Below, one piece after another: positions 32,993 through 59,760 of a DNA stretch of 64,000 bases. A program made the translations under genes and the position numbers. Location of the stretch: contig JAUIDB010000002.1 of the NCBI GenBank assembly GCA_030429235.1, positions 176,769 to 240,768 of the forward strand, read 5' to 3'. The DNA comes from Thermoanaerobaculia bacterium. Lineage in GTDB: Bacteria; Acidobacteriota; Thermoanaerobaculia; Multivoradales; JAIOJS01. The notes under the pieces were generated by a model. It worked only from the letters and a program-made list of their open reading frames with translations. It did no database searches and had not been told where the DNA came from. Position 1 is the stretch's first letter, and every line of letters starts with the position of its first letter.

Positions 32993-33013
32993 TCTCGGTT
33001 CCCGCCGGTCGGG

Positions 33014-33043
33014 GTCCGGCCCAGCGCAGGCCGGGCCGGACCT
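33014..33043 (+). terminator. GC-rich 10-bp inverted repeat hairpin (ggtccggccc...gggccggacc) between the flotillin and giant genes. It has no U-tract, so it may be an attenuator or RNA-processing site rather than a terminator.
   Basis: A perfect 10-bp stem with a 10-nt loop, read directly from the sequence. Confidence 0.3.
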
Positions 33044-33083
33044 CCCATTCGTCTCGAACTCCCTCTGGAGGAACCCACTGCCG

Positions 33084-46000: not shown

Positions 46001-46629
46001 ACTCCGACGCGGCGGCGGCCCTGTCGGTCGACACTCTGCGCTGGCCGGGCTTCGACCGGTCTCGGATCGCCGCCGAGGAGCGCGACGAGATCCTAGGCCA
46101 CTACGGCAGGATGGTGGAGCAACTCAAGGAGTACGCCGACCGCTGCCTCTACCTCGGGGACCGGGAGGAGCTGTTCCAGGAGACCCGTCGGCAGCGCATC
46201 GTGCTCCACGCCCGCCTGCAGAAGGCGTTTGCGGCGGCGCCTGGCTTCGCCCGTTCGTTGGGGCTCGACGCCGAGCGTGGCTTCGAGGTGCACTCCCTCC
46301 GCCGCGCCCTGCGGTTCCGTCTGGATGGACGGGCGATGCCGCAGGTTTTCGTGTCGGTGACCCAGTCCGAGACGGTGGCGGCCGAACCCGATCGCGGCGT
46401 ACCCCGTCATACCCTGCGGGGAGGTGCCACGCTCGTGCTGGATCTAGCTGAACCGGACGAGCCTCGCTACCTGATCGGCAAGCAGCTGCGGAACTTCCGT
46501 CGTCGACGGGCCGTGGCTGAGTTCCACCGCCAGGTCCAGGCTGATCCGTTGCGCCGACTCTTCTTCGCGGCCCACCGACTCGAGCCCTTCGCGGCACTGC
46601 ACGACCTGGCGGAACACGATCGATCCTGA
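43069..46629 (+). CDS. Cytoplasmic 1186-aa fusion protein: an N-terminal S8 subtilase domain plus a C-terminal HExxH gluzincin-like metalloprotease domain.
   Basis: No signal peptide. S8 triad contexts AHIDTGY (Asp), DNSGHGTGT (His) and GTSSATPQVAAAAAL (Ser). Then IVHETTHAILDG...AFHEGFADL (HExxH plus downstream Glu). Confidence 0.75.
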   Translation: MSAPARVTGSDVVLVKLRPSAQRAARPSRVELEPLHRSSGPAAEFGLDETPRWYLAHAIEAAESPWDQAHGRVARQLGVAAEDLLFVEPDLVHSVFVAPDEIGGRDADRRAVGGDCTPRPQDGRNRKAKGPDEFAWHLGRRYSDLGRAREAVSFAAPRTRIAHIDTGYYPSHETAPRHALPSLERNFVARDFDPSSASDPDNWRLLLDNSGHGTGTLSILAGGAVSAHDDFVMGGAPEAEVVPIRVSDSVVLLRTSSLARGLRYAGESGCAVATLSMGGVPTRAWGDAVDEAYELGLCLVAAAGNHVGNLPPRKLVYPARYQRVIAVCGVMADGRPYKDLGGRALEGCFGPKSAMRFALAAYTPNIPWARFGCPEAVRLNGEGTSSATPQVAAAAALWIEKYKDLLPSDWRRVEAVRHALFTSAKTKAKTRYFGQGILQAHRALSVRPDLTRPKSARSDSSFGFLRVLTGLGLDGRTTREEMFNLELAQRWLLSETLQEIVPDPEVARDLPRARLAQFAEAVIEDPAASRALRRHLLKRYAVLTGRRPPRGPEVESLRPEPPPVAVARPEIPTPAHRRIRVYATDPGLSAAFETAAVGEVTLRVRWENLRKGPVGEYLAVEDTGPRRYEGVNLNHRSLLAQDGWTPSEGNPQFHQQMVYAVAMKTIEHFEGALGRPILWRPRPRPDDPNDDSEFVRRLTVHPHALEEANAYYSPQQIALLFGYFEPSEARGRARNAPVYTCLSHDIIVHETTHAILDGMHRRFNEPSNFDVLAFHEGFADLVALLQHFTIPELLEYEIGRTRGDLEAETLLGKLAVQFGRGIGSREGLRSAIGTVRDGEWERSTPDPGALDRQTTPHGRGGVLVAAVFDALLAIYRRRIADLLRIATGGTGVLPSGAIHPDLVKRLAAEASKAAGHVLGMCVRALDYLPPVDVTFFDFLRALITADFEIVPDDRRDYRVAFVEAFSRRGIRPGEHDEHSDAAAALSVDTLRWPGFDRSRIAAEERDEILGHYGRMVEQLKEYADRCLYLGDREELFQETRRQRIVLHARLQKAFAAAPGFARSLGLDAERGFEVHSLRRALRFRLDGRAMPQVFVSVTQSETVAAEPDRGVPRHTLRGGATLVLDLAEPDEPRYLIGKQLRNFRRRRAVAEFHRQVQADPLRRLFFAAHRLEPFAALHDLAEHDRS

Positions 46630-47440: not shown

Positions 47441-49110
47441 CTACAGCTCGAAGGCTATGAACCGGCCCCAGCAGGAGGCGAGCTCCATGCCGCGCTGCAG
47501 GAACGCCGCGATGTAGTAGCGGCCGGTCGAAGCCTCGGCGATCGCCCCGCCGAGGTTCTCGGCGTGGACGATGCCCTTGGGGAAAAGGTTGAGGTGCATG
47601 TCCTGGTAGTACTGGTCCAGGGGATACATGCTGTCCCAGTCCTGACCGAACTGATCGATCAGCTTCTGGTTGGCCTCGGCGAAGGTCTTCGGGTGCATAC
47701 GCCGTTGGATGGTGTTCATCGGGTGCTCCATGGCCACGCAGTCGATGCCGAGCCAGCGCACCTGCCGCTCGATACACCAGGCGGCGAAGTCGGGAGACGG
47801 ACCGGGGTGCCGGATCATGTAGCGGAACTCGTCCGAGTCGGGGCTGTTCCAACCGAAGCGGTGCCAACCCGTCTTGATCAGCAGGATGTCGTGCGGTCGC
47901 ACCTCGATCCGATCCTCGATCATCTGCGGGGTGTAGACACTGCAGTCGCTGACCTCCTCGGAGATGTCGACGATGACTCCTTCGCCGTGCCAATGGTCGA
48001 GCGGTACCTCACCGAGGGTACGGCCCGCGGCCCAGAAGTGCTTTTCGCCGTCCATGTGCGTCGCGAGGTGGAAGCTAGCGCGGCAGTGGGCGTTGTTGCG
48101 CCCGAGGCCGAAATCGAGGCCGCCGACGCGCTTGGTGTACTTCAAACTCAACGGCTCGTAGTTGGCCCACTGCGGCGTCTGGACGCTGAAGGGCAGGGTC
48201 AGGTCCATCGCCTCGCAGTGGTCGAGATCGCCGTAGAACGACTCCTCGTCGTGGTCGTCGGGAGGCGTCAGCGCTACCACCCGGCACCAGGCTGACTCGA
48301 CCTCCATGAAGGGGATCGGCTGCACCATGACCCAGGCCCGGCGGCTGCCCAGGTTGGCGAGGTCACCGCCGAGGGACTCGGCCAGCAGCAGCCCGGCCTT
48401 GGGCAGCGTGGTGTGGGTGAGGCGCTGGTATTCGTGGGGCGGAAAGACCTCCTCCCAACTCTGGCCGGTCGCAGCGCGCAATGCGGCTTCGGCCTTGTCG
48501 AACTCGTTCGGATGCAGGAAGCGGAGGTTGGTGTTCATCGGATGCTCGGCGCTGCCGCAGTCGACGGCCACGAGCTTGAGCTTCCGCTCCAGGGCCCAGG
48601 GGAAGAAGTCGGGAGAGGGGCCGGGGTGGCGCAGGTAGTAGCCGAACTCCTTGTTCTCGACCCCTCCCTGGGCCTTGGGGTTGGCGACGTCGGGATGATC
48701 CCAGGTGTAGCGGTGGTAGCCGGTGTTGATGACCAGGATGTCGCCTTCGCGCACCTCGACCCGTTGTTCGATCATCTCGGGGGTGTAGAAACCGTAGTCC
48801 GAAACCGCGTCCGAAAGATCGACGATCGCGGTCGGGCCGCAGAGCCGGTCGAGCGAGATCTCCGCGATCGACTCGCAGCCCGAGTGGAAGGCGCGCGGCC
48901 CTACCAGGTGCGTACCGGTGTTGTTCGACCATTCGATCAGCTGCCCGTTGGCTCCCTGTCCGCCTCCCCACGATCCCGTCAGGCGCTTGAAGAAGTGAAC
49001 CTGCAACGGCATCTCGCCGGGCCAGGGTGGGGTGAAGATGCTGAGCGGTTGGGTGAGGTCGTGCCAGTGGGCTCGCGTCAACGGATGGGGGGTAGTCGCT
49101 GATTCGTTCA
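47441..49110 (-). CDS. Tandem double cyclase-family (kynurenine-formamidase-like) protein.
   Basis: Two repeats of about 270 aa, each with an HxGTHxD-type motif (SNNTGTHLVGPRAFH and FHLATHMDGEKHF) and the conserved stretch RHPGPSPDF. Confidence 0.65.
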
Positions 49111-49308
49111 TGGGGTCTCCGAGGTCATGAGTGCCGATTCTACGGCGTACGTTCCCTGAGGCGAGTTGGCCCGGTCCGAGAAGCCCGGCCGAGGGTGGAT
49201 CTCCGTAACAAATGCCGCCTGCGACCGTCTCGAAGTCGCTATCCTGAAGCCACAACGTAGCGAACCAGCGACGAGGTACCAGCAAGTGGGGTGGGGGGTG
49301 AAAAGAAG

Positions 49309-50827
49309 CATGGTCGGTGATCGATTGGAGTGCCGTTTCGAGGTCTGCCCGCGGATCGGGCGGGGCGCGGTGCGGACGAACCTGCTGCTCGCCTTGCTAC
49401 TGTTACTCGCCGGTCCTTCCGGGGCCCAGAGCGAAGTCCGGGCGGACCTGCCCGCGTCCGCGGTCGATCTCCACACCCACGTCTTCAACGCGGGGTACCT
49501 CCCCGTGGAGGGGATCATGGTGTCCCGGGGCGTGCCGAAGGTGGTGGCTCGGCTGCTGGCTCGCTTCCTCGAGTCGCGGGTCGAATTCGCCGACCTCTCG
49601 CAGAGCCGCGACGAACTGTTTGCCGCCGACCTGCTCAATCCGCTCGAACTCAGTGAAGCGCAGGCCAAGGCCGAGCTGTTCAACCGCGGCGACCTGCCCG
49701 ACCTGACTTCACGGCAGCGCCGCCAACTGCGCCGCTACCTGCTCGAGGCCAGTCCCGAGGCGGATCAGGACCTCGATCGTCTCTCCGACGAAGAGCTGGT
49801 CGCCCGCGGGCTCGAGGAGGCGCCGTTGACGGCCGACGGAGGTAAGAACACCTTCCGCTTCCTGCTGTTACTGCTGCGGGACGAGGTCACCATCGTGCGG
49901 ACTTTGCGGGACGAGTACCCGATCGGGCGTTTCGTCCACCACATGATGGACCTGGAGAAGGCCTACGACGACCGGCCGATCCTGGAGTTCCGCGACGAGC
50001 AGATTCCGCGCATGCAGGCATTGGGCGAGATCTTCCCCGACGAACTGGTCTGGTTCGTCGCCTTCGATCCCTTCCGACGCGATCAGTCACTCGAGATCGT
50101 CAAGGCCGCAGTCCGGGGCGGGGCCGCGGGGATCAAGTTCTATCCCCCCAGCGGTTACCGCGCGGCGAACAACGACATCCCGAAGAAACCGCGCTGGTAC
50201 CAACGCGCGAAGAGGAAGCAGTGGAAGTCCCGCTATCGTGATCTGAGGGACGCGGACCTCGACCGGATCAACGACCGGCTCTTCGCCTGGGCCGCCGAGC
50301 GAGGGGTCCCGATCCTCACCCACTGCACCCCCGCCGGGTTCGAGGCCTCCAAGGGGTACGGGAAGATGAGCGACCCGGACCACTGGAAACCGGTCCTCGA
50401 CAAGTACCCGAACCTTCGCATCGCCTTTGGGCACGGGGGCGGGGGAGAGGGGTGGTTCGCCGAGGCGCCTTGGGACCTCGCACGTCCGGCGACCTACGGC
50501 GAGAAGGTCTACGCCCTGGTCACCCAGTACGAGAATGCCTACCTCGGGGTCGGCTACTGGGACGAGATCCTCGACGGCGACCCCGCGAAGGACTACCGCG
50601 GCCACCTGCAGCGCCGGCTGGAGCGGTTGATCGACCGTTCCGGCGACCCCTACCGCCTCGGCGACAAGATGCTCTACGGCACCGACTGGCACATGGTGTC
50701 GAAGCTCGACGACCGCCGCCGCCTGCTCACGGAGTTCCTCGACCTCTTCGATCAGCCGCAACTCCGCCCGTGGCGTGACCGGCTCTTCGTGGGCAATGTC
50801 GAGCGCTTTTTGAACCTGACCGAATGA
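49309..50827 (+). CDS. Secreted amidohydrolase-superfamily (TIM-barrel metallo-hydrolase) protein.
   Basis: Signal peptide LLLALLLLLAGPSGAQS and a DLHTHVF metal-binding motif. Confidence 0.65.
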
Positions 50828-50854
50828 CCTAGCTCAACCCAGGAGGTCCCATCG

Positions 50855-52507
50855 ATGAAGAAGCAACGACTCTCTCTCCCGACGCTCTCGACCCTCCCGA
50901 CCCGGACGAACCGAAGCAGGCTGCGTTTCGGGCCGACCCTACTGCTTCTCACCTTGGCCAGCTCGCTGGTGGCGGCGCAGACCCGTGGTCAGGCTCCGAA
51001 CCTGTTCGAGTTCCTCGATGCCGGTGACGTGCAACTGACCGAGGACCAGACCGGCCGGCTGCAGGCGTTCGAGGAGGACCCGACTGCCGGCGACGTCCAA
51101 CTCGTGTTGATCGACCTCGGACTGGCCGACATGGCGGACTCGATGAATCTGAATCTCATTCCCGGTCACGAGATTCCCCTGACTACCACCCGTCGCGATG
51201 AGCGGAAGGCCGGCGACTACAGTTGGTTCGCCGAGGACCGAGACAGCGGGAGTTCGGCCATGTTGGTGGTGCAGGGCGACGAGATCGTGGGCACCGTGCG
51301 GTCCTCCGGGCAACTCTTCCAGGTGCGCCCCCTGGGGGACGGCATCCACGCGGTGATCGAGGTCGAGCAGGACAAACTGCCGCCGGACCACCCGGAGGAG
51401 TACGACGAGCTGGACCCACAGCAGATGGACCCGGGGCCGGCGGGTGATCAAGGGGACGCGGCGATGGCGGACGCCTGTTCACCGATCGACGTCATCGTGG
51501 CCTATACCCCGGTCGCCGAAGCGCAGGCCGGCAACATCGGCGGTCTCATCCAGCTGGCGATCGACGAAACCAACCTCTCGTACGCCAACAGTGCCATCCA
51601 ACCCCGTCTGAACCTGGTCCACAGCTACGAGACCAACTACACCGAGTCCGGCAGCATGAGCCAGGATCGTGACCGCTTCCGCATCGTAGGGGATGGCCAC
51701 ATGGACGAGATCCACGGATTGCGAGATACCCACGGCGCCGATGTCGCGGTGTTGGTCACAGGGCGGGGCGGCTTCTGTGGCATCGCCGCCGACATCGGTG
51801 CCGTGGCCTCGACCGCCTTTGCGGTGGTGGGCCAGAACTGCGCCACCGGCTACTACTCCTTCGGCCACGAGATCGGGCACCTACAGGGTGCACGACACAA
51901 CCCGGAGGCCGATCCCACTCCTACCCCCTTCCCGTTTGGTCACGGCCTGTTCCACGCCCCCGACAGCTGGCGTACCGTGATGTCCTACAACTGCCCCGGC
52001 GGTTGTACGCGCGTCACGCAGTGGTCGAATCCCGATGTCGACTACCAGGGTACGCCCACCGGGACGGTGGCGGGGAACGACAACGCCCGAGTCCTCGACG
52101 AGACCGCGTGCACGATCGCAGGGTTCAGGAGCACGGCGCTGGCCGGGATCACGGTCACGCTGGCGCCCGACAGCCTCTCCCTGGGCTCCTCGGAGAGCGC
52201 GACGGTGGTGGCCACGGTCTTCGACGGTGGGAGTCCTCTGGCCGGGGAGTCGGTCTCCTTCTCCAGTGGAGATCCCGGCGTGGCGACGGTGACGGCGATG
52301 GGCACGACGGATGCCAGCGGACGTGCCTCCGGGACCGTGGAGGCGGTCGGCAAGGGTGAGACCGCGGTCGAGGCCTCGATCCAGGGGAGTACGGCTCGGT
52401 CGGAGGTCGAGGTCGTACCCGGCGCGTCCCTGGTCAGCCTGTCGCTGGGGCTGCTACTGGCCCTGCTCTTCCTGTGGAGGCGGGACCAGACGCTCGCGGC
52501 GCGATGA
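50855..52507 (+). CDS. Secreted metzincin (M72/reprolysin-like) protease with Ig-like (Big_2-like) repeats and a PEP-CTERM-like sorting tail.
   Basis: Signal peptide. GHEIGHLQGARH (HExxHxxGxxH). C-terminus reads EVEVVPGASLVSLSLGLLLALLFLWRRDQTLAAR*: a short motif, a hydrophobic helix, then an Arg cluster. Confidence 0.75.
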   Translation: MKKQRLSLPTLSTLPTRTNRSRLRFGPTLLLLTLASSLVAAQTRGQAPNLFEFLDAGDVQLTEDQTGRLQAFEEDPTAGDVQLVLIDLGLADMADSMNLNLIPGHEIPLTTTRRDERKAGDYSWFAEDRDSGSSAMLVVQGDEIVGTVRSSGQLFQVRPLGDGIHAVIEVEQDKLPPDHPEEYDELDPQQMDPGPAGDQGDAAMADACSPIDVIVAYTPVAEAQAGNIGGLIQLAIDETNLSYANSAIQPRLNLVHSYETNYTESGSMSQDRDRFRIVGDGHMDEIHGLRDTHGADVAVLVTGRGGFCGIAADIGAVASTAFAVVGQNCATGYYSFGHEIGHLQGARHNPEADPTPTPFPFGHGLFHAPDSWRTVMSYNCPGGCTRVTQWSNPDVDYQGTPTGTVAGNDNARVLDETACTIAGFRSTALAGITVTLAPDSLSLGSSESATVVATVFDGGSPLAGESVSFSSGDPGVATVTAMGTTDASGRASGTVEAVGKGETAVEASIQGSTARSEVEVVPGASLVSLSLGLLLALLFLWRRDQTLAAR

Positions 52508-54579
52508 CCAAGGCCGGCCCTCGACCCGCCCCCGAGTGGCGCCGTTTCGCTTTGGTGGTAGGGCCGGTGACCCTCGCCCTGGTCGGGCTCTACCTGGCCC
52601 GGGTCGAGCTGCCGTTCCTGGCTCCGCTGGGCGTGGCGACGGCCGAGATCGCCGGCCGGATCCTCGCGCTGTCGGGGATCGAGACGTTGCGAGCGGGCGA
52701 CGTTCTCAGCCACCCTTCCGGGTTCGGCTATCAGGTCGCCTACTCCTGTACCGGGCTCTTCCAGTGGGTCTTTCTGGTGGCTGGCCTCCTCGGGCTCCGC
52801 TTGACGGGGCGCTCGCGCTGGCTTCGTCTGCTGGTGGGCACGGGAGTTCTCGCGGCCGTCAATCAGCTGCGCCTGGTGGTTCTCTTCTGGCTCGGGTTGT
52901 TCGCTCCCCACTGGTTCGATTTCGCGCACGAGGTCCTCTTTCGGTCCTTGATGCTGGCAGTGGTGCTCCTGGTCTGGTTCTGGCGTCCCGCGCCGCCGCC
53001 GACAGACGCCGCGGTCACTTCGCCCCCAGGGGTCGGTTCCGAGAGTCGATCGTGGGGGCAATCGATGGCGTGCCTCGGGATGCTCCTGTCGGTGCTTTTG
53101 GCCGCCCCGGCCTGCGCGCAACCCCAGGAGACCACCGCCTCGGAGCAGGCCGAGCGCGAGCTCATCTCTCTGGAACGCGTGCAGAGTGAAGTAGCGGTCG
53201 AGCTCCGCCAACGCAGTCTGGAACGGGTCGACGGAGCCGTCTTTCAGGCCCTGACCGAGGCCGTGTCGCGAGAGCAGATCCTCTCCCAGGTGCCACTGGA
53301 TCGGGCCGAGGTCGGGGGATTCTTCGATTCGGCGGAGGGTTTGCAGGTCCTGGCCATTCTGCAGGATCCGGCGGTGTCGGAGTTGCAGCTGGTGCGAGCG
53401 GACCTCGCGGCGCTCCGCGAGCCGTCGGGGTTGATCGAAGAGCGGGACCTCGGCAATACCGCCAGCCTGCTGGGATTCGAGGTTCTCGACCCCCGATTCT
53501 CGGCCGTCGACGACCACACCGTGGCCTGGCAGGGTTCGTTGGCCGGCGAGAACGACGGCGATCTCGTACTGGTGGTGGACGAGGCGGGGGTCTCCGGCTT
53601 GATCCGGCGCGGCTCCACCCTCTACTCGGTGGTGCCGATGGGTCGTGAACTGCACGCCATCACTAGCTCCGAGCCCGCGGTCGGACTGCGCTCGCTCGAC
53701 GACGCTGGACCGCCCGGCGGCGAGGCGGGCGATGTCGACTCTGGAGATCAGGCCGAGACTCCGCCCGGCGAGAATGGGGCGGGGGCCGAGGCCACCGCAC
53801 CGGACGATGAAGGAGACGAGGCCCCGGTGGCGGACGATGCGCCCGATCTCTGCGCGGCCGGCTGGGTCGGCCCACCAGTGGAGATCGAGATTCTGGTCGG
53901 CGCGACTGCGCTCGCTCGAGAGCAGGCCCGCCGCCGAGGACGCCACCTCGACACCTTGATCCAGCTGGCCAAGTTCGTCGCCGACACCACCTTCAGCAAC
54001 AGCGAGATCCCGGTCACCGTCCGCCTCGTCGGGATCGAATCGGTCGACTACGAGGAAGAGTGCTCCCAGCTCTTCCAGTGCGCGCGGGACCTCGCACGAC
54101 CGGTCGAGAGCCTGGAGAATCTCATCGAGCGACGTCGCGAGACCAAGGCCGACGTGGTGATCCTGGTCCTTCACGAGGAGGACGACACCAACTGTGGCTG
54201 GGCCTCGGGGATCGGGGTCGAGGCCGGTCAGGCCCTGGCTGTCGTCAACTGGCAGTGCCTCAATGATCGCTTCTCGTTCATCCACGAAGTCGGTCACCTC
54301 ATCGGGGCCTGGCACAACCAGGAAGCGATCACCAGTCCGTTGCCCAAGGACCCGCGGTTCGCCCACGGCTTCGTCGATTGCTCGGAGAACCCGTTCTCGA
54401 CCGTGATGGGCGCTTCGAACTCCTGTCCGGGCGGCGTGGGACGACTGCTCGCCTGGTCCAACCCGGCGGTGCCCCACGCCGGACGCGCCACCGGCGTCAA
54501 GGAGAGTAGCGATGTCGCCTGTCTTTGGTCGTTGCGCGCTCGAGAGGTGGCGGGGTTCGGGGAACAGCTGACCCACTAA
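52504..54579 (+). CDS. Fusion protein: an N-terminal exosortase/archaeosortase-like polytopic membrane core (~170 aa) plus a C-terminal periplasmic metzincin domain paralogous to the previous gene.
   Basis: ATGA start/stop overlap with 50855..52507. N-terminus has four predicted TM helices, a Cys in AYSCTGLF and NQLR about 40 aa later, consistent with the Cys/Asn/Arg signature of exosortases. C-terminus has FIHEVGHLIGAWH and CPGG...WSNP, as in the neighbour. Confidence 0.55.
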   Translation: MTKAGPRPAPEWRRFALVVGPVTLALVGLYLARVELPFLAPLGVATAEIAGRILALSGIETLRAGDVLSHPSGFGYQVAYSCTGLFQWVFLVAGLLGLRLTGRSRWLRLLVGTGVLAAVNQLRLVVLFWLGLFAPHWFDFAHEVLFRSLMLAVVLLVWFWRPAPPPTDAAVTSPPGVGSESRSWGQSMACLGMLLSVLLAAPACAQPQETTASEQAERELISLERVQSEVAVELRQRSLERVDGAVFQALTEAVSREQILSQVPLDRAEVGGFFDSAEGLQVLAILQDPAVSELQLVRADLAALREPSGLIEERDLGNTASLLGFEVLDPRFSAVDDHTVAWQGSLAGENDGDLVLVVDEAGVSGLIRRGSTLYSVVPMGRELHAITSSEPAVGLRSLDDAGPPGGEAGDVDSGDQAETPPGENGAGAEATAPDDEGDEAPVADDAPDLCAAGWVGPPVEIEILVGATALAREQARRRGRHLDTLIQLAKFVADTTFSNSEIPVTVRLVGIESVDYEEECSQLFQCARDLARPVESLENLIERRRETKADVVILVLHEEDDTNCGWASGIGVEAGQALAVVNWQCLNDRFSFIHEVGHLIGAWHNQEAITSPLPKDPRFAHGFVDCSENPFSTVMGASNSCPGGVGRLLAWSNPAVPHAGRATGVKESSDVACLWSLRAREVAGFGEQLTH

Positions 54580-54598
54580 CCGCGAGAGGAGAGGAACG

Positions 54599-55702
54599 GT
54601 GACGGAAGCAGAGAGTTCGAGATCGGATCGGCAACGGACTAGGTTTGCAGTGGGTCTGACCGCATTGGCCTTGATCGGAGTGTCCTTGGGAGGTCGGGCT
54701 GCGGCGGGAGAGGCCGCTCGTTCCGACCTCTCGGCGACGCCGTCCCTCGCCGCCGTCGAGTGTCTCACCTACTCGCAAGAGCGCGGACTCTTCTCGCAGC
54801 TCGGCACGGCCTACGAGGTGCTGGACGACCAGTTCGCACGCAGCGATGCGATCGTGGCTTCGGAGATCGTCTTCGGGGCCGACAGCCGATTGGTGTTCCC
54901 CCGGATGGAGTACTCCAAACGGGGACCCTCCCACTGCGCCGATCTCTATTTCGTGGTGGCGGATCGGTTGACCAGCGACGAGGCGGCTGCGGCCACCATC
55001 ACCTGGGATCGGGCGTTCCCGGCCGATCCTCCGCTCGACCGTGGCTGGGCGCCGGCGGGAGCGGGAGGCGTGGCTCCGGGCGAGGACGGCAGCGACGGCT
55101 CTCCCGGAGGGCCCGGCAACGCGGGCCGCGACGGCGCGCACGCGCCCAATCTCCTGGTCATCCTGGGGGAGCTCACAGGCCCGCTAAGCCTCGACTTGCG
55201 GGGACAGGATGGAGGCACCGGAGGAGTGGGGCAGAGCGGTGGCCCGGGTGGAGCTGGGGCCAGCGGCCGCGCGGCGGTCCCCGGATTGCTCGACTGCCGG
55301 AAAGGACCGGGGGCGGGAGGCGACGGTGGTGACGGCGGCCTAGGAGGCCGCGGGGGTCGCGGTGGCAACGGCGGTTTGGGGGGCACGGTGATCGTGATCG
55401 CTCCCGAAGAGCAGGCGGCGACCATCGATGAACTGCTCGACGTGACCGTCGATGGCGGGGCCGCGGGCGAAGGCGGCGCGCCAGGCATTGGGGGCACGGA
55501 AGGACGTGCCGGACGAGAAGGCAGAGCCACGCCCCCGTGCCGATCGGCTCGTCGCGATGGAAAGACCGGGCAGAGGGGGGGCGACGGGGTGGAAGGGGAG
55601 GATGGTGACCCCGGAGAGTCGGGGGACTACTACCTGCTTCCCCTACCGGCCGAGCAGTTCGAGGAAGTTCTCGGGGCGGCCTTTGGTCGAGCCGCCGAGT
55701 GA
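54599..55702 (+). CDS. Secreted Gly-rich protein with collagen-like G-X-X triplet runs.
   Basis: GEDGSDGSPGGPGNAGRDGAH, GQDGGTGGVGQSGGPGGAGASG and GKTGQRGGDGVEGEDGDPGESGD are perfect G-X-X repeats. Hydrophobic N-terminus. Confidence 0.5.
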   Translation: MTEAESSRSDRQRTRFAVGLTALALIGVSLGGRAAAGEAARSDLSATPSLAAVECLTYSQERGLFSQLGTAYEVLDDQFARSDAIVASEIVFGADSRLVFPRMEYSKRGPSHCADLYFVVADRLTSDEAAAATITWDRAFPADPPLDRGWAPAGAGGVAPGEDGSDGSPGGPGNAGRDGAHAPNLLVILGELTGPLSLDLRGQDGGTGGVGQSGGPGGAGASGRAAVPGLLDCRKGPGAGGDGGDGGLGGRGGRGGNGGLGGTVIVIAPEEQAATIDELLDVTVDGGAAGEGGAPGIGGTEGRAGREGRATPPCRSARRDGKTGQRGGDGVEGEDGDPGESGDYYLLPLPAEQFEEVLGAAFGRAAE

Positions 55703-56688
55703 AGACGGGGGCCGTACTGCTCGTGTTCTGGCTGGCGCCCACCGTCCTGTGGGCGCAGCCCGAGGACGAAGTCGCCTACCTGGCGGAGCTGCTGCTGCAG
55801 GCTTCGGAGCTGCCGAAGCGCGCCCTGGTGGTAGGGGTGGAGAGCTACGATGACCTCCCCGACGTGACCAACGCCACCAGCGATGCGACGAGAGTCTCGC
55901 TGGCGCTCAAGGACCTCCAGTTCGCGGTCACCCCGGCCACCGACCTCAACCGGCGCCAGTTCTTCGAACACCTCGACGACTTCGTCGATCGCTCGCTCGC
56001 CGTCTCGCTTCCCGAACAGGCGGTGGTGGTCTTCTACTTCTCCGGCCACGGCTTTCGCTTCGGGGACGACAACATGCTGGTACCGGCCGATGCCGCAGCG
56101 ACTGGCGAGAGCCTGGTCGACAAGGCCGTGCCCCTCTCCCACGTGGTGCAGCGGATCGTGGACAAGAACGTGGCCCTGGCCCTTTTCTTCATCGATGCCT
56201 GCCGCACCGAGCTCACTAGTTTGCAGGAACTCGAACTCGAGGTCGGCTTCGCGGAGCCGCTGGTGCGGCACAACACCTACTACGGCTTCGCCAGCGGCTA
56301 CGGCAAACCCTCCTTCAGTTTCGTGCGGGAGGGGGACGCCAACAGTCCCTTTGCGAGGTCGCTGGCCACTCGGTTGACGATGCCGGGGGTCGAACTCCAC
56401 AGTCTCTTCGAAGGGGTCCGTCAGGAAGTGGCCAACCTCAGCGAGCAGCGTCAGGTGCCCCACGAACACAAGGACTTCTTCGGTGACTACTACTTTGCCT
56501 TGACGCCCCAGCATCGGAACGCTCTCAGGGGACAACTGTCTACGGCCCTCATTCTCGCCGCCCTGCGTGGACCGGGGTGCGTGCGCTCGTATCTCGCTTC
56601 CGATCCCGCGAGTGAGTTTTCGACCGCCGCCCGCGCCTGGCTTCTGGACCAGAACGAGCCGCTGAAAGGTAGCGTCCATTGCGAGTGA
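55699..56688 (+). CDS. Secreted caspase-like (peptidase C14) domain protein.
   Basis: Signal peptide MKTGAVLLVFWLAPTVLWAQP. RALVVGVESYDD, FYFSGHG (His) and LFFIDACR (Cys) dyad contexts. Confidence 0.65.
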   Translation: MKTGAVLLVFWLAPTVLWAQPEDEVAYLAELLLQASELPKRALVVGVESYDDLPDVTNATSDATRVSLALKDLQFAVTPATDLNRRQFFEHLDDFVDRSLAVSLPEQAVVVFYFSGHGFRFGDDNMLVPADAAATGESLVDKAVPLSHVVQRIVDKNVALALFFIDACRTELTSLQELELEVGFAEPLVRHNTYYGFASGYGKPSFSFVREGDANSPFARSLATRLTMPGVELHSLFEGVRQEVANLSEQRQVPHEHKDFFGDYYFALTPQHRNALRGQLSTALILAALRGPGCVRSYLASDPASEFSTAARAWLLDQNEPLKGSVHCE

Positions 56689-57536
56689 TGGGACCGCTTT
56701 CCCAGGTGCGGCTGCGCGGTGGCCTCGGCTGGCTGCTGCTGGTGGCGTTGACCGCTCCGGCCGGCGCCGAATCGGAACCGATCGCCAAGGCCCGGCAGAT
56801 GGCGCGCGAGAACCTAGAACCCAAGATCGTCTTGGGGGAACCGGTCCCTCTGGAAGAGCGCCCCTGGCAGGTAGCTCTGGTGCTTTCGGAGCTGACGGAC
56901 GACTACCGAGGGCAGTTTTGCGGTGGAACCCTGATCGTTCCGGACTGGGTGTTGACCGCGGCCCACTGCGTCGACGGCGACACCACCACCGAGGAGGTCG
57001 AGGTCCTCTTCGGGAGCGCGACGCTGGATCAGAGCGGCAATCGGATCGCCGTTCGTCAGATCCGCCTCCATCCGGCCTGGAACCCCGCCACCCGAGACCA
57101 CGACGCGGCGCTACTCCAACTCTCGGGCGCCGTCCGCAGCCAACCCCCGCTCGCGCTGGCCGCCTTAGAGCAGCTGACCGCGGCCGAAACCCTGGAGGTG
57201 TCCGGCTGGGGCAAGACGGACGAGTTCGTCGTCTTCAAGTCCCGGGGCCTTCTGCAGGTGCAGCTCCCCCTGGTCAGCCACGAGGACTGCACCCAACCCG
57301 ACAGCTACGGCCAGGCGATCACCCCGGCGATGTTCTGCGCCGGTCGCCGCGAGGGAGGGGAGGACGCCTGTCGCGGTGATAGCGGGGGCCCCGCCACGGT
57401 CACCGTCGAGGGGGAGGAGCGGTTGGCCGGCATCATCAGTTGGGGCGAAGGCTGTGGCCGGGCCAAGAAGTACGGCGTCTACACCACGGTGCCCCAGGTC
57501 GCCGACTGGATCCGCTCCGTGCTGTCGTCAGGGTAG
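56688..57536 (+). CDS. Secreted trypsin-like (S1) serine protease.
   Basis: LTAAHC, DAALLQL and GDSGGP triad. Signal peptide. ATG overlaps the upstream stop (tgATG). Confidence 0.85.
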   Translation: MGPLSQVRLRGGLGWLLLVALTAPAGAESEPIAKARQMARENLEPKIVLGEPVPLEERPWQVALVLSELTDDYRGQFCGGTLIVPDWVLTAAHCVDGDTTTEEVEVLFGSATLDQSGNRIAVRQIRLHPAWNPATRDHDAALLQLSGAVRSQPPLALAALEQLTAAETLEVSGWGKTDEFVVFKSRGLLQVQLPLVSHEDCTQPDSYGQAITPAMFCAGRREGGEDACRGDSGGPATVTVEGEERLAGIISWGEGCGRAKKYGVYTTVPQVADWIRSVLSSG

Positions 57537-57713
57537 AGCTGGCGAGGCCTCAGGCAGAGCTGGCGAGGCTTCAGCCGTTTCGCAGGGATCGATCGACTTT
57601 CCCGAGACCTCAGCCGTTTCGCGGGGTTCGATCCCGTGCCTCCATCACGAACGGCTCGCGGAGCGGACTCCTGCTATCCTCCGCGGCGTCGGAACCAAAC
57701 CAGACGATCCACG

Positions 57714-59039
57714 ATGCGAGCACGCAACCACCACCGACGACACCGTCCGCTTCTCTTGGCCGCCTCGCGGGTGGCCGTGGGTGTGGCTCTGCTGTCGGCC
57801 GCGGCAGCGGCCCCCGCCGCGGCCTCGCCGCTCGGACCCGGTACCGAACTCTGGATCACCCTCGGCGCTGATGCCTTCGATCTTCTGGCCGGTCAGGCCG
57901 ACCACCAGGGCCTGGAGCGCCTCGAGGAGCAGGACGGGGTGGTGCTGACGCAGGTCCGATTCGGGGATCTAGCGGGTCTCTCGGCCTCGCTCCACGAATC
58001 GACCGGCCGCTGCGCCGGGTTCCTGGCTCACCGCACGCTGGCGCAGGCCCGCGCCGCCCTGGCGGTACCGCGCACCAGGAGCTCCCTGGCGGGTGGCGTG
58101 TCGTACTCGATCAACCAGACCGAATGGGTCACGAGTCTCGAGGCCGATCTGGACAAACCCTCGATCCTGGCCACCATCGATCACCTGTCGACTGCCTACC
58201 ACAACCGATACCACGCCTACTCTTCGGGGGCCGAGGCGGCGGAGTGGATCCGCGACCTCTGGCGGAGTTACGCAGAGACGCGACCCGAGGTCACGGTGGA
58301 ACTGGTGTCCCACCCCGGCATCAATCAGCCGTCAGTGGTGTTGACGATCCCCGGTTCGACCTTCCCCGATCAGCACGTGGTGCTGGGAGGACATCTCGAC
58401 TCCGTCAGTCCGGGGACCAGCAACCCGAACTTCCTGGCGCCGGGGGCCGACGACAACGCCTCCGGCATCGCTGTGCTCGGCGAGATCGCGCGCGTCGTCC
58501 TGGCGGCGGACTTCCGACCCCAGAGGACGGTCCAGATCATGGGCTACGCGGCGGAGGAGATCGGTCTGGTGGGATCGCAAGATATCGCCGACGGCTACGA
58601 GGCGGCCGGCCGCGACGTGGTGGCGGTGCTGCAGTTCGACATGACCGACTACTTCGGATCGGTGGAGGACATGGCCTTCCTCAGCGACTACACCAACGCC
58701 GATCTCACCGCCTTTCTCGGGCAGCTGGTCGACACCTACCAACCGGTACTCGCCTGGACCACCAGCGCCTGTGGGTACGGCTGCTCGGACCACGCGGCCT
58801 GGCATCGGGCCGGCTATCCCGCCTCTATGTCGGCCGAAGCCCGCTTCGGGCAGCACAACCCCGCCATCCACTCCACCTCCGACACGTTGGCGACGCTCGG
58901 CCACAACGTGGACCACGCCTTCAAGTTCGCCCGCCTGGGTCTCTCCTTCCTGATCGAAATCGGCAATCCGGAACGGTTCCTCTTCCGGGATGGTTTCGAG
59001 ACGGGATCGACCGAGGCCTGGTCCCAGTCGGTGCCTTGA
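57714..59039 (+). CDS. Secreted M28-family zinc aminopeptidase carrying the C-terminal DGFETGSTEAW tail.
   Basis: HLDSV, ADDNASGIAVLGE, GYAAEEIGLVGS and DM..DY metal-ligand motifs. C-terminus reads ...ERFLFRDGFETGSTEAWSQSVP*. Confidence 0.85.
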   Translation: MRARNHHRRHRPLLLAASRVAVGVALLSAAAAAPAAASPLGPGTELWITLGADAFDLLAGQADHQGLERLEEQDGVVLTQVRFGDLAGLSASLHESTGRCAGFLAHRTLAQARAALAVPRTRSSLAGGVSYSINQTEWVTSLEADLDKPSILATIDHLSTAYHNRYHAYSSGAEAAEWIRDLWRSYAETRPEVTVELVSHPGINQPSVVLTIPGSTFPDQHVVLGGHLDSVSPGTSNPNFLAPGADDNASGIAVLGEIARVVLAADFRPQRTVQIMGYAAEEIGLVGSQDIADGYEAAGRDVVAVLQFDMTDYFGSVEDMAFLSDYTNADLTAFLGQLVDTYQPVLAWTTSACGYGCSDHAAWHRAGYPASMSAEARFGQHNPAIHSTSDTLATLGHNVDHAFKFARLGLSFLIEIGNPERFLFRDGFETGSTEAWSQSVP

Positions 59040-59052
59040 CCGAGGTCCCCCG

Positions 59053-59760
59053 ATGACGGATCGGAGCCACGCTCCGCAATGCTCCGGTCGACGGAGCCCG
59101 CCCAATCGCTGGGTCCAGGTCCAAGCCGAGAAGATGATCGGTCAACACGGTTTCCTCGGCGTGCCGCGGGAGACCTTCCAGGAGGGCGGATCGGCCCACT
59201 TTCAGCGGCTCCTGGCCCACGGGTTAGGCCCCGATTCGAAGGTCCTGGACATCGGCTGTGGTGTCCTCCGGATCGGCAGCTGGTTGATTCGCTTTCTCGA
59301 ACCTGGTGGTTACGCGGGGATCGAACCCGCCCGCGACCGGGTGGAACTCGGCTGTCGGTACCTACTGAGCCCGGAACTCCTGGCCGAAAAGAGACCCCGC
59401 TTCGACCACAACGCCGTCTTCGACAGCTCGGGGTTCGAGGATCAGTTCGACTTTTTCCTCGCCTGCTCGATCTGGACGCACTGTGGCAAGGCGCAGATCG
59501 CCACCCAGCTCGAGGGGTTTGCCCGCCATACCGGGCCGAGCGGAGTGTTCCTAGCCTCCTACCTCCCGGCGACCGACCCGGAGGAGGACTACCAGGGGGA
59601 TCACTGGGTGGGAACTAGCCACGAGTCGACCATCCCCGGGATCGTGCGCCACTCGCTGGATTGGATCCGTTCTGCCTGCGTTCACCATCAGCTCCGTGTG
59701 ACCGAGCTGCCGGGGATCGATTGCGACAGTCAGTACTGGCTCCGCGTGGACAAGTCCTGA
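59053..59760 (+). CDS. Class-I SAM-dependent methyltransferase.
   Basis: VLDIGCGVLRIGSWL (motif I). Confidence 0.65.
   Translation: MTDRSHAPQCSGRRSPPNRWVQVQAEKMIGQHGFLGVPRETFQEGGSAHFQRLLAHGLGPDSKVLDIGCGVLRIGSWLIRFLEPGGYAGIEPARDRVELGCRYLLSPELLAEKRPRFDHNAVFDSSGFEDQFDFFLACSIWTHCGKAQIATQLEGFARHTGPSGVFLASYLPATDPEEDYQGDHWVGTSHESTIPGIVRHSLDWIRSACVHHQLRVTELPGIDCDSQYWLRVDKS

What the first reader, a model, noticed from the sequence alone, without database searches (positions are those of the whole stretch)
49309..59760. Co-directional island of seven secreted hydrolases of four catalytic classes
About 10 kb on one strand encodes, in order:
- an amidohydrolase
- a metzincin
- the sortase-like-metzincin fusion
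- a collagen-like Gly-rich protein
- a caspase-like C14 protein
- a trypsin-like S1 protease
- an M28 aminopeptidase (with the DGFE tail)
- a methyltransferase

Several boundaries have overlapping or tightly spaced stops and starts: ATGA at 52504, GTGA at 55699, tgATG at 56688.

A secreted caspase-fold protein and a collagen-like protein inside a protease operon is unusual. The island may be an extracellular protein-degradation or predation/defence cassette whose parts are co-regulated.
Basis: partly seen in the sequence, partly recalled or inferred. Interest (0 to 1): 0.65.

Follow-up and report, generated by a model that had tools for sequence, protein, structure and literature searches.

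The report
Three protease gene modules side by side
The "island" is real, but it is three separately conserved gene modules placed next to each other: a membrane sorting enzyme with its protease cargo (here uniquely fused to a second protease), an undescribed glycine-rich/caspase-like/trypsin-like trio, and an aminopeptidase pair.

Summary
All eight listed genes exist on the + strand in the stated order, with the stated families and exact stop/start overlaps. All but the methyltransferase carry signal peptides. The run is not one conserved cassette.

Module A (49286-54579) holds a secreted Amidohydro_2 protein and a pro-metzincin with a C-terminal VPGAS / membrane helix / RR sorting tail. It also holds an XrtH-like exosortase. 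A tail-bearing protein sits directly upstream of this exosortase clade in 6 of 6 informative loci. Only here is the exosortase fused in frame to a second, paralogous pro-metzincin. Among 1.84 billion representative proteins, only a 98% identical strain variant shares this fusion.

Module B (54599-57536) is a glycine-rich solenoid protein with no Pfam or NCBIfam family, followed by a C14 caspase-like and an S1 trypsin-like protease. The Gly-rich gene has both proteases beside it in 5 of 7 contexts, always in unrelated neighbourhoods. The Gly-rich domain is also found fused to either protease.

Module C is an M28 aminopeptidase plus a methyltransferase, after a 177-nt spacer.

No other locus combines the modules. 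Co-transcription of A and B in this organism remains plausible. The protein called "collagen-like" is not collagen, and "sortase-like" means exosortase.

The parts
49286..50827 (+). Module A: secreted Amidohydro_2 metal-dependent hydrolase. The likely start is ATG 49310, and the signal peptide reads ...LLLALLLLLAGPSGAQ|S.
   Evidence: Pfam PF04909, 48.2 bits. A 46% identical homologue sits directly upstream of the metzincin/exosortase pair in L009. Sequence read.
50855..52507 (+). Module A: pro-metzincin 1, the putative exosortase cargo. It has a signal peptide, a propeptide, the HEIGHLQGARHN catalytic domain, a Big_1 stalk and a C-terminal sorting tail.
   Evidence: Reprolysin_5 55.5 bits and Big_1 30.9 bits. 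Partial match to Mep72. Homologues lie upstream of the exosortase in L002 and L009.
52403..52504 (+). Tripartite C-terminal sorting signal of metzincin 1: EVEVVPGAS - LVSLSLGLLLALLFLW - RRDQTLAAR.
   Evidence: It is the only real gene in the 64-kb window with a hydrophobic tail followed by a basic cluster. Equivalent tails (VPTVSPWG..RR, VPAGAAWA..RR, APALSTWS..RRR, VPAASAWG..RR, VPGLSDAG..RR) lie upstream of the related exosortases in L002, L004, L009, L018 and L019.
52504..53013 (+). Module A: XrtH-like exosortase domain (aa 1-170 of the 691-aa fusion). Four membrane helices; Cys82, Arg123 and His142.
   Evidence: TIGR04178 37.9 bits (cut-off 23). XrtH 59.6 bits (cut-off 86, so below). C82, R123 and H142 are invariant in alignments A1 and A2. 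Hydropathy.
53014..53121 (+). Fusion linker plus relic signal peptide of metzincin 2 (MACLGMLLSVLLAAPACA|Q). There is an internal ATG at 53065 with a GGGGG run 7 nt upstream.
   Evidence: Stand-alone homologues P0002 and P0003 begin with their own signal peptide and align from aa 211 or 225. DNA read, hydropathy. 4 of the 13 substitutions in strain variant P0001 fall in the linker, and the frame is kept.
53122..54579 (+). Module A: pro-metzincin 2 (HEVGHLIGAWHN), a paralogue of metzincin 1, fused to the exosortase.
   Evidence: Reprolysin_3 42.9 bits and Reprolysin_5 33.9 bits. 32% identity to metzincin 1, E 7e-33. 35-38% identity to stand-alone P0002 and P0003.
54599..55702 (+). Module B: secreted Gly-rich solenoid protein from an uncharacterised family. 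It has an N-terminal beta domain, five blocks of Gxx triplets and two invariant Cys.
55699..56688 (+). Module B: secreted caspase-like C14 peptidase. His in FSGHG, Cys in IDACR.
   Evidence: PF00656, 89.8 bits. Signal peptide MKTGAVLLVFWLAPTVLWAQ. 48% identical neighbour of the Gly-rich homologue in L013.
56688..57536 (+). Module B: secreted S1 trypsin-like serine protease. It has TAAHC, DHDAAL and GDSGGP, with Asp six residues before the catalytic Ser.
   Evidence: PF00089, 190.6 bits. 55% identical in L013 and 38% in L016, L021 and L022.
57532..57633 (+). Spacer between modules B and C. It holds two pairs of direct repeats (21 nt x2, 31 nt x2) and could contain a promoter or operator.
   Evidence: No significant RNA structure (z = 0.05).
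57714..59039 (+). Module C: secreted M28 (LapA-like) aminopeptidase ending in ...FRDGFETGSTEAWSQSVP.
   Evidence: PF04389, 119.9 bits. LapA model 217.6 bits, below the equivalog cut-off of 600.
59053..59760 (+). Module C: putative class I SAM methyltransferase with no signal peptide.
   Evidence: Methyltransf_12 29.1 bits (cut-off 30) and the VLDIGCG motif.

Best explanation
The 10.4-kb run is a lineage-specific juxtaposition of three units, not one system.

**Module A: a dedicated exosortase sorting system.**
- Metzincin 1 is exported by Sec and held in the inner membrane by its C-terminal helix.
- The adjacent XrtH-like exosortase (Cys82/Arg123/His142 at the outer face) then cleaves it at the VPGAS motif. 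The protease is released or transferred to the cell surface.
- In this organism a second, paralogous pro-metzincin gene downstream lost the intervening stop codon and is now translated as one chain with the exosortase.
- The old signal peptide of metzincin 2 acts as a fifth membrane helix and puts the protease domain outside. It may be cut at ACA|Q by signal peptidase.
- The conserved upstream secreted Amidohydro_2 protein has an unknown accessory role.

**Module B: a conserved operon whose genes overlap (translationally coupled).**
- It encodes an extracytoplasmic beta-solenoid / polyglycine-type protein plus a caspase-like and a trypsin-like protease.
- Both proteases are predicted to cleave after basic residues.
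- The solenoid most likely serves as scaffold, stalk or substrate for the two proteases.

**Module C: an M28 aminopeptidase and a methyltransferase,** probably with their own promoter.

**Shown:** gene content, motifs, conservation patterns and the fusions. **Inferred:** cleavage by the exosortase, membrane topology, the fate of the fusion and the role of the solenoid.
For: **Module A**
- The exosortase signature is passed and the catalytic triad is conserved.
- The only sorting-tail-like C-terminus in the window belongs to the gene whose stop overlaps the exosortase start.
- In all 6 loci of this exosortase clade where the upstream gene is visible, it ends in [VA]Pxx[S]-helix-RR. These are the window, L002, L004, L009, L018 and L019.
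- The cargo is a metzincin in three loci, an S8 subtilase in L019 and an unknown 937-aa Big_1 protein in L018.
- Homologue P0033 passes the XrtH cut-off. Its cargo tail approaches the IPTL-CTERM and midcut-by-XrtH models.
- L009 repeats the order amidohydrolase, metzincin, exosortase.
- The dedicated one-enzyme/one-target concept is described in 10.1101/2023.06.07.544157.

**The fusion**
- Among 1.84e9 representatives, only P0001 (98% identical) spans both halves. The nearest relatives are stand-alone exosortases of 159-199 aa and stand-alone metzincins of 502-786 aa with their own signal peptides.
- The frame is kept in two strain variants and four contigs.
- The topology is consistent with an outside protease domain.

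**Module B**
- The order Gly-rich, C14, trypsin, with overlapping stops and starts and signal peptides, recurs in L013, L016 and L021. L014 and L017 hold the same proteins on further contigs. In L022 the trypsin gene is divergent.
- The Gly-rich domain is fused to C14 in P0202 and to trypsin in P0204 (hhalign probability 99.8%).

**Composite nature**
- No module A locus has module B genes, and the reverse also holds.
Against: - No transcript or protein data exist.
- The window's own tail (VPGAS) matches no curated sorting-signal model, and the exosortase scores below the XrtH cut-off.
- Several module A loci are short contigs, so the absence of module B there is informative only for L009.
- The amidohydrolase link rests on two loci.
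- A 19-nt gap and the lack of a terminator between modules A and B mean they may be co-transcribed and functionally coupled in this organism.
Confidence: 0.7

Rival explanations
1. The whole 49.3-59.8 kb run is one co-regulated extracellular protein-degradation or predation cassette, and its components act together.
For: All genes are co-directional. Gaps run from -4 to +27 nt up to the trypsin gene. No terminator-like site lies on the + strand. Seven of the eight products have signal peptides. The genome is protease-rich: an S8 at 43069-46629 and a Trypsin_2 protein at 13597-15678.
Against: The modules are conserved separately and never together in the other loci. A 177-nt repeat-containing spacer precedes the M28 gene. 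The methyltransferase is cytoplasmic. Nothing marks an island: no composition anomaly, tRNA or integrase.
Confidence: 0.2
2. Module B (Gly-rich, caspase-like, trypsin-like) is a conflict or anti-phage system, like the caspase- and trypsin-type effectors of gasdermin, Avs or EACC1 systems. It merely landed next to the exosortase module.
For: There are weak hits to the EACC1-associated caspase model and to the PADLOC caspase, LmuA and Avs1b protease models. In L016 the trio lies about 1.7 kb from a run of genes that includes Prok-E2, ThiF/JAB and PNP_UDP_1. In L021 it lies next to a phage-type integrase. Its neighbourhoods vary, which suggests mobility.
Against: All three proteins carry Sec-type signal peptides in every locus examined. 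They therefore act outside the cytoplasm. There is no NTPase, sensor or pore-forming partner, and no PADLOC system-level match. The domain hits are generic protease-fold matches far below family cut-offs.
Confidence: 0.12
3. The exosortase-metzincin fusion is an assembly or sequencing artefact, or a recent pseudogenising read-through. In reality there are two separate genes.
For: A relic signal peptide, an in-frame ATG and a G-rich Shine-Dalgarno-like run are retained at the junction. All other relatives are unfused.
Against: The exact 691-aa product is called on four contigs from public assemblies. A 98% identical variant from another assembly keeps the same length and frame despite 13 substitutions, four of them in the linker. 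GC3 is 0.83 across the ORF.
Confidence: 0.04

Closest known systems
Exosortase H (XrtH, TIGR04177) with IPTL-CTERM cargo; more generally the exosortase/archaeosortase family (TIGR04178) and Haft's 'dedicated' sorting systems
   Same: A small polytopic exosortase core of about 160 aa with conserved Cys/Arg/His. The best-scoring specific model is XrtH. The cargo carries a tripartite C-terminal signal (short motif, helix, Arg cluster). In relative L002 that tail resembles IPTLSxWG (VPTVSPWG). The enzyme and its single target are adjacent, as in dedicated systems.
   Different: The score is below the XrtH cut-off (59.6 against 86). The window's tail (VPGAS) matches no curated CTERM model. The relatives found are in Acidobacteriota (Thermoanaerobaculia). 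From my own knowledge, XrtH is mainly a proteobacterial family. The arrangement is one target per enzyme, not many. The exosortase is covalently fused to a metzincin, an architecture seen in no other representative.
Reprolysin-like / Mep72-type (MEROPS M12B/M72-like) secreted bacterial metzincins
   Same: The HExxHxxGxxH motif, a Met-turn, a long propeptide and a signal peptide. Pfam Reprolysin_3/4/5 scores are above cut-off.
   Different: Only a partial match to the Mep72 equivalog (81 bits against 645). No solved structure is detectable by sequence. One copy carries Big_1 plus an exosortase tail, and the other is fused to the exosortase.
Bacterial orthocaspases (C14) paired with trypsin-like domains
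   Same: A p20 domain with a His/Cys dyad, associated with an S1 trypsin-like protease. p20-trypsin fusions are reported in Alphaproteobacteria (PMC6426788).
   Different: Here the genes are separate and each product has a signal peptide. The dyad is the canonical HC, not QC. There is an obligatory third partner, the Gly-rich solenoid, which I did not find described in the literature searches.
Polyproline/polyglycine-II helical bundle proteins (springtail antifreeze proteins, PE_PGRS PGII models) and beta-helix adhesins (EtpA, HMW1, autotransporter passengers)

Membership tests
Exosortase/archaeosortase family (TIGR04178) | Signature HMM above the curated cut-off | tested here: met
   37.9 bits against a cut-off of 23, covering residues 86-170 of the 701-aa ORF used as query.
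Exosortase/archaeosortase family (TIGR04178) | Conserved Cys, Arg and His residues in a polytopic membrane core | tested here: met
   C82, R123 and H142 are invariant in A1 and A2. Four hydrophobic segments place Cys and His at the outer face. That this is the catalytic triad comes from my own knowledge of the literature.
Exosortase/archaeosortase family (TIGR04178) | A cognate protein with a tripartite C-terminal sorting signal | tested here: met
   Metzincin 1 has the tail VPGAS / helix / RR. Analogous tails lie upstream in 6 of 6 loci.
Exosortase/archaeosortase family (TIGR04178) | Actual cleavage or transpeptidation of the cargo | not testable with these tools
   This needs C-terminal proteomics or mutagenesis.
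Exosortase H (TIGR04177) / IPTL-CTERM system | XrtH model above the curated cut-off of 86 bits | tested here: not met
   The window scores 59.6 bits. Relative P0033 scores 87.5, P0083 67.7 and L009 55.5.
Exosortase H (TIGR04177) / IPTL-CTERM system | Cargo tail matches IPTL-CTERM (TIGR04174, cut-off 20.5) | tested here: not met
   The window tail has no hit. The L002 tail scores 18.6 bits, and 24.9 bits to midcut-by-XrtH, both below cut-off.
Metzincin metallopeptidases (Reprolysin-like) | HExxHxxGxxH zinc motif, a Met-turn and a Pfam Reprolysin model above cut-off | tested here: met
   HEIGHLQGARHN and HEVGHLIGAWHN, followed by TVM. Reprolysin_5 scores 55.5 and 33.9 bits against a cut-off of 27.
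Peptidase C14 (caspase/orthocaspase) | Pfam model above cut-off and a His/Cys dyad | tested here: met
   89.8 bits against 21.4. The motifs SGHG and DACR are read.
Peptidase S1 (trypsin) | Pfam model above cut-off and a His/Asp/Ser triad | tested here: met
   190.6 bits. TAAHC, DHDAAL and GDSGGP are present, and the Asp at the S1 pocket position is read.
Bacterial collagen-like proteins | A long uninterrupted G-X-Y repeat and a Pfam Collagen hit | tested here: not met
   No Collagen hit. The longest run is 9 triplets and the blocks are interrupted by strands. AF2 gives a compact monomeric solenoid with pLDDT 87.8.
Known anti-phage defence systems (PADLOC) | Component models that match at system level | tested here: not met
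   Only generic protease-fold hits were found (caspase 33.8 bits, LmuA 23.7, Avs1b 19.1). The Gly-rich protein has no hit.
Operon (single transcription unit 49.3-59.8 kb) | A continuous transcript across all junctions | not testable with these tools
   Only gaps and pattern scans are available. Gaps are -4 to +27 nt except for 177 nt before the M28 gene. No + strand terminator-like site was found.

The most novel reading that the evidence does not exclude
Module B is a previously undescribed, widely distributed extracytoplasmic three-component machine. A polyglycine/beta-solenoid protein would be the scaffold or proteolytically activated substrate of a paired caspase-like and trypsin-like protease, forming a bacterial extracellular protease cascade. 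In this organism it would have been recruited into one transcription unit with an exosortase that is physically fused to a metzincin. The sorting enzyme would then itself nucleate a cell-surface proteolytic apparatus.
Probability: 0.15. Interest if true: 0.75.

Novelty: new variant of a known kind. Interest (0 to 1): 0.48.

Why it matters
**Exosortase biology.** Exosortases are among the least understood protein-sorting enzymes, and no bacterial one has a defined acceptor or structure.
- A clade that always sits next to a single protease cargo gives a minimal two-gene system. That is the easiest setting in which to test cleavage and anchoring.
- The covalent exosortase-metzincin fusion gives a natural handle for topology and co-purification work.

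**The module B trio.** It defines a new glycine-rich protein family with more than 100 members and no Pfam or NCBIfam model. Its genomic and domain-fusion links to secreted caspase-like and trypsin-like proteases suggest an uncharacterised extracytoplasmic role for bacterial caspase homologues. These homologues are usually discussed as intracellular death or defence effectors.

**For genome scanning.** A striking run of similar functions can be a chance juxtaposition of independent modules.

Tried and rejected
- **Word-indexed homologue searches.** Searches with the fusion and with the exosortase domain alone returned almost nothing. The exhaustive representative search was needed.
- **Genome contigs.** A scan with the whole fusion found nothing. 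The four-sequence alignment A1 was too divergent to seed, while A2 worked.
- **Excluded relatives.** Five hits in Bryobacteraceae and Solibacteraceae are a more distant exosortase clade. Their upstream genes have no tail and they share a different downstream partner, so I left them out of the tally.
- **Metagenome contigs.** A scan with the caspase found nothing.
- **1832-aa ORF.** An exact-sequence look-up failed.
- **Cluster look-up.** It gave no organism names.
- **Unavailable resources.** The 2012 exosortase paper is not held, and the afdb50 fold library was unavailable.
- **Transcription signals.** Promoter and terminator scans and RNA folding of the spacer were uninformative.
- **Module B accessory genes.** The proteins of about 357-596 aa flanking module B in other loci are not homologous to each other or to the M28 protein. 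I rejected a four-gene module.
- **Collagen reading.** Rejected.
- **Mobile-island reading.** No tRNA and no GC shift were found.


Full report
**1. Observation**

The window is about 67% GC with no composition break at the region. Nine plausible + strand ORFs fill 49.2-59.8 kb. All have GC3 of 0.74-0.87.

Pfam assigns the following:
- Amidohydro_2.
- Reprolysin_5 plus Big_1.
- Reprolysin_3/5 in the C-terminal half of a 691-aa protein.
- Nothing for a 367-aa Gly-rich protein.
- Peptidase_C14, Trypsin and Peptidase_M28.
- A weak class I methyltransferase signal.

NCBIfam shows that the N-terminal 170 aa of the 691-aa protein are an exosortase-family domain. TIGR04178 scores 37.9 bits (cut-off 23). 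The best specific model is XrtH at 59.6 bits, below its cut-off of 86.

The same genes are called on an identical public metagenome contig, Logan ERR3428545. Seven of the eight products begin with a signal-peptide-like segment, and the methyltransferase does not.

**2. Module A: an exosortase and its cargo**

I scanned every ORF of the window for a hydrophobic C-terminal helix followed by a basic cluster. Only one real gene qualified: metzincin 1, with the tail ...EVEVVPGAS-LVSLSLGLLLALLFLW-RRDQTLAAR. Its stop overlaps the start of the exosortase gene.

The exhaustive search of 1.84 billion representatives found two stand-alone small exosortases as the closest relatives of the N-terminal half. 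These are P0033 (199 aa, 44% identity) and P0083 (159 aa, 43% identity).

| Locus | Gene directly upstream of the exosortase | C-terminal tail |
|---|---|---|
| window | metzincin + Big_1 | VPGAS...RR |
| L002 (P0033) | metzincin + Big_1-like stalk homologous to metzincin 1 | KVPTVSPWGLLLLAALGSLLLRRH |
| L004 (P0083) | Big_1-like stalk homologous to metzincin 1 (contig cuts off the rest) | VPAGAAWALLLLALIAYLALRRQ |
| L009 (Thermoanaerobaculia MAG) | metzincin, 47% identical | APALSTWSLLLLAGAAPLALRRRARA |
| L018 | 937-aa Big_1 protein | KKVPAASAWG...RR |
| L019 | S8 subtilase + Big_1 | VRVPGLSDAG...RR |

In L009 a secreted Amidohydro_2 protein (46% identical) precedes the metzincin, and the exosortase is a stand-alone 177-aa protein.

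So in 6 of 6 loci where the upstream gene can be seen, this exosortase clade follows a secreted protein, usually a protease, that carries a [V/A]Pxx[S]-helix-RR tail. Cys82, Arg123 and His142 are invariant. P0033 passes the XrtH cut-off, and its cargo tail scores just below the IPTL-CTERM cut-off. This fits the "dedicated system" pattern described by Haft (10.1101/2023.06.07.544157).

Five more distant exosortases in Bryobacteraceae and Solibacteraceae have a different context, and I did not count them.

**3. The fusion**

Only P0001, a 98% identical strain variant, spans both halves of the 691-aa protein. The best matches to the C-terminal half are stand-alone secreted pro-metzincins: P0002 (502 aa) and P0003 (786 aa). 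They start with their own signal peptides and align from residue 211 or 225. Their contexts have no exosortase.

In the fusion, residues 185-206 (GQSMACLGMLLSVLLAAPACAQ) are a relic signal peptide. The in-frame ATG at 53065 still has a G-rich run 7 nt upstream.

Hydropathy and the positive-inside rule give four helices for the exosortase core with a cytoplasmic C-terminus. The relic signal peptide then forms a fifth helix that places the protease domain outside. That is a workable topology.

Strain variant P0001 has 13 substitutions, four of them in the linker, and no frame change. An artefact is therefore very unlikely. Metzincins 1 and 2 are paralogues at 32% identity, E 7e-33.

I infer stop-codon loss between an exosortase gene and a downstream metzincin gene. 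I cannot tell whether the product stays tethered or is cut at ACA|Q.

**4. Module B: the Gly-rich, caspase-like and trypsin-like trio**

The Gly-rich protein has more than 100 homologues of about 330-380 aa, none with a Pfam domain or an informative name. Alignment A3 shows these features:
- A signal peptide.
- A beta-rich N-terminal domain.
- Five blocks of 7-9 Gxx triplets.
- Two invariant cysteines.

| Context | Arrangement around the Gly-rich gene |
|---|---|
| window | Gly-rich, C14, S1; stops and starts overlap |
| L013 (and L014) | same order; 43%, 48% and 55% identity |
| L016 (and L017) | same order |
| L021 | same order, next to an integrase |
| L022 | trypsin gene divergent; a second Gly-rich paralogue after C14 |
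| L020 | Gly-rich, unknown 435-aa protein, Trypsin_2 |
| L015 | Gly-rich alone |

All products examined keep signal peptides. The Gly-rich domain, including the Cys motifs, is fused C-terminally to a C14 domain in P0202. It is fused to a trypsin domain in P0204, with hhalign probability 99.8%.

The flanking genes differ in every locus and are not homologous to one another. The conserved unit is therefore the trio.

Both proteases have intact catalytic residues. The trypsin has Asp at the S1 pocket position (read). Orthocaspases cleave after basic residues, and trypsin-p20 fusions are known (PMC6426788). There is no PADLOC system match.

**5. Module C and surroundings**

A 177-nt spacer with two pairs of direct repeats precedes the M28 gene. 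It shows no significant RNA structure. The methyltransferase follows after 13 nt and lacks a signal peptide. I could not test conservation of this pair.

The wider window is ordinary chromosomal DNA. It encodes a Ser/Thr kinase with TPR repeats, a GGDEF protein, NrfD and a DUF3686 AAA ATPase, plus further proteases (S8 and Trypsin_2). It has no tRNA.

**6. Synthesis**

None of the module A loci carries module B or C genes, and none of the module B loci carries module A or C genes. The "island" is therefore a lineage-specific juxtaposition.

Co-transcription of A and B in this organism remains plausible, given the 19-nt gap and the absence of a terminator-like site. A functionally integrated cassette is not supported.

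**7. Novelty and score**

The gene families are known. Two things are new variants:
- An Acidobacteriota-type, one-cargo XrtH-like exosortase whose cargoes are proteases with a Big_1 stalk. In this lineage it carries a unique covalent fusion to a metzincin.
- A conserved secreted Gly-rich/C14/S1 trio built around a protein family without any model. I did not find it described in four literature searches.

Interest is moderate at about 0.48. The original "seven-hydrolase island" framing is weakened, but the two sub-systems are concrete and testable.

Noticed in passing
window 57532-57633: The spacer between the trypsin and M28 genes holds two pairs of direct repeats: 21 nt x2 (GG.AGAGCTGGCGAGGC.TCA) and 31 nt x2 (CGAG.C.TCAGCCGTTTCGC.GGG.TCGATC). 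They could be an operator or promoter region. There is no significant RNA fold.
   Followed up: partly
window 58977-59036: The M28 aminopeptidase ends in ...FLFRDGFETGSTEAWSQSVP. It has no hydrophobic helix, so it is not an exosortase-type signal. Its meaning is unknown.
   Followed up: no
window 53040-53067: Inside the fusion ORF, an in-frame ATG (53065) is preceded by GTGGGGG about 7 nt upstream. This looks like a relic ribosome-binding site. Metzincin 2 might also be made as a separate protein.
   Followed up: partly
window 47441-49111 (- strand): This divergently transcribed gene has two tandem Cyclase (PF04199, arylformamidase-like) domains. It shares a promoter region of about 175-200 nt with the Amidohydro_2 gene.
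   Followed up: no
window 31010-38582: A 660-aa ORF with no Pfam hit is followed by a 1832-aa protein with DUF3686, DUF7902 and AAA domains. This could be a large NTPase conflict or repair system.
   Followed up: no
L016 1-6351 and 8001-10965: In this unrelated contig, the Gly-rich/C14/trypsin trio lies about 1.7 kb downstream of a gene run that includes Prok-E2, ThiF/JAB and PNP_UDP_1. The neighbourhood looks like a defence island.
   Followed up: partly
L022 4011-8234: This is a variant of module B. The trypsin gene is divergent, and a second Gly-rich paralogue (357 aa) follows the caspase gene.
   Followed up: partly
L006, L008, L010, L011, L012: A more distant exosortase clade in Bryobacteraceae and Solibacteraceae (motif FDFAHLYLWESL). 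In four of the five loci it is followed, with a short overlap, by a conserved membrane protein of about 250 aa (SPQLR[FY]LLR...). No tail-bearing gene lies upstream.
   Followed up: no
window 13597-15678 (-) and 43069-46629 (+): The same window also encodes a 693-aa Trypsin_2 protein and a 1186-aa S8 subtilase. The genome is protease-rich, which lowers the surprise of several peptidase genes lying close together.
   Followed up: partly
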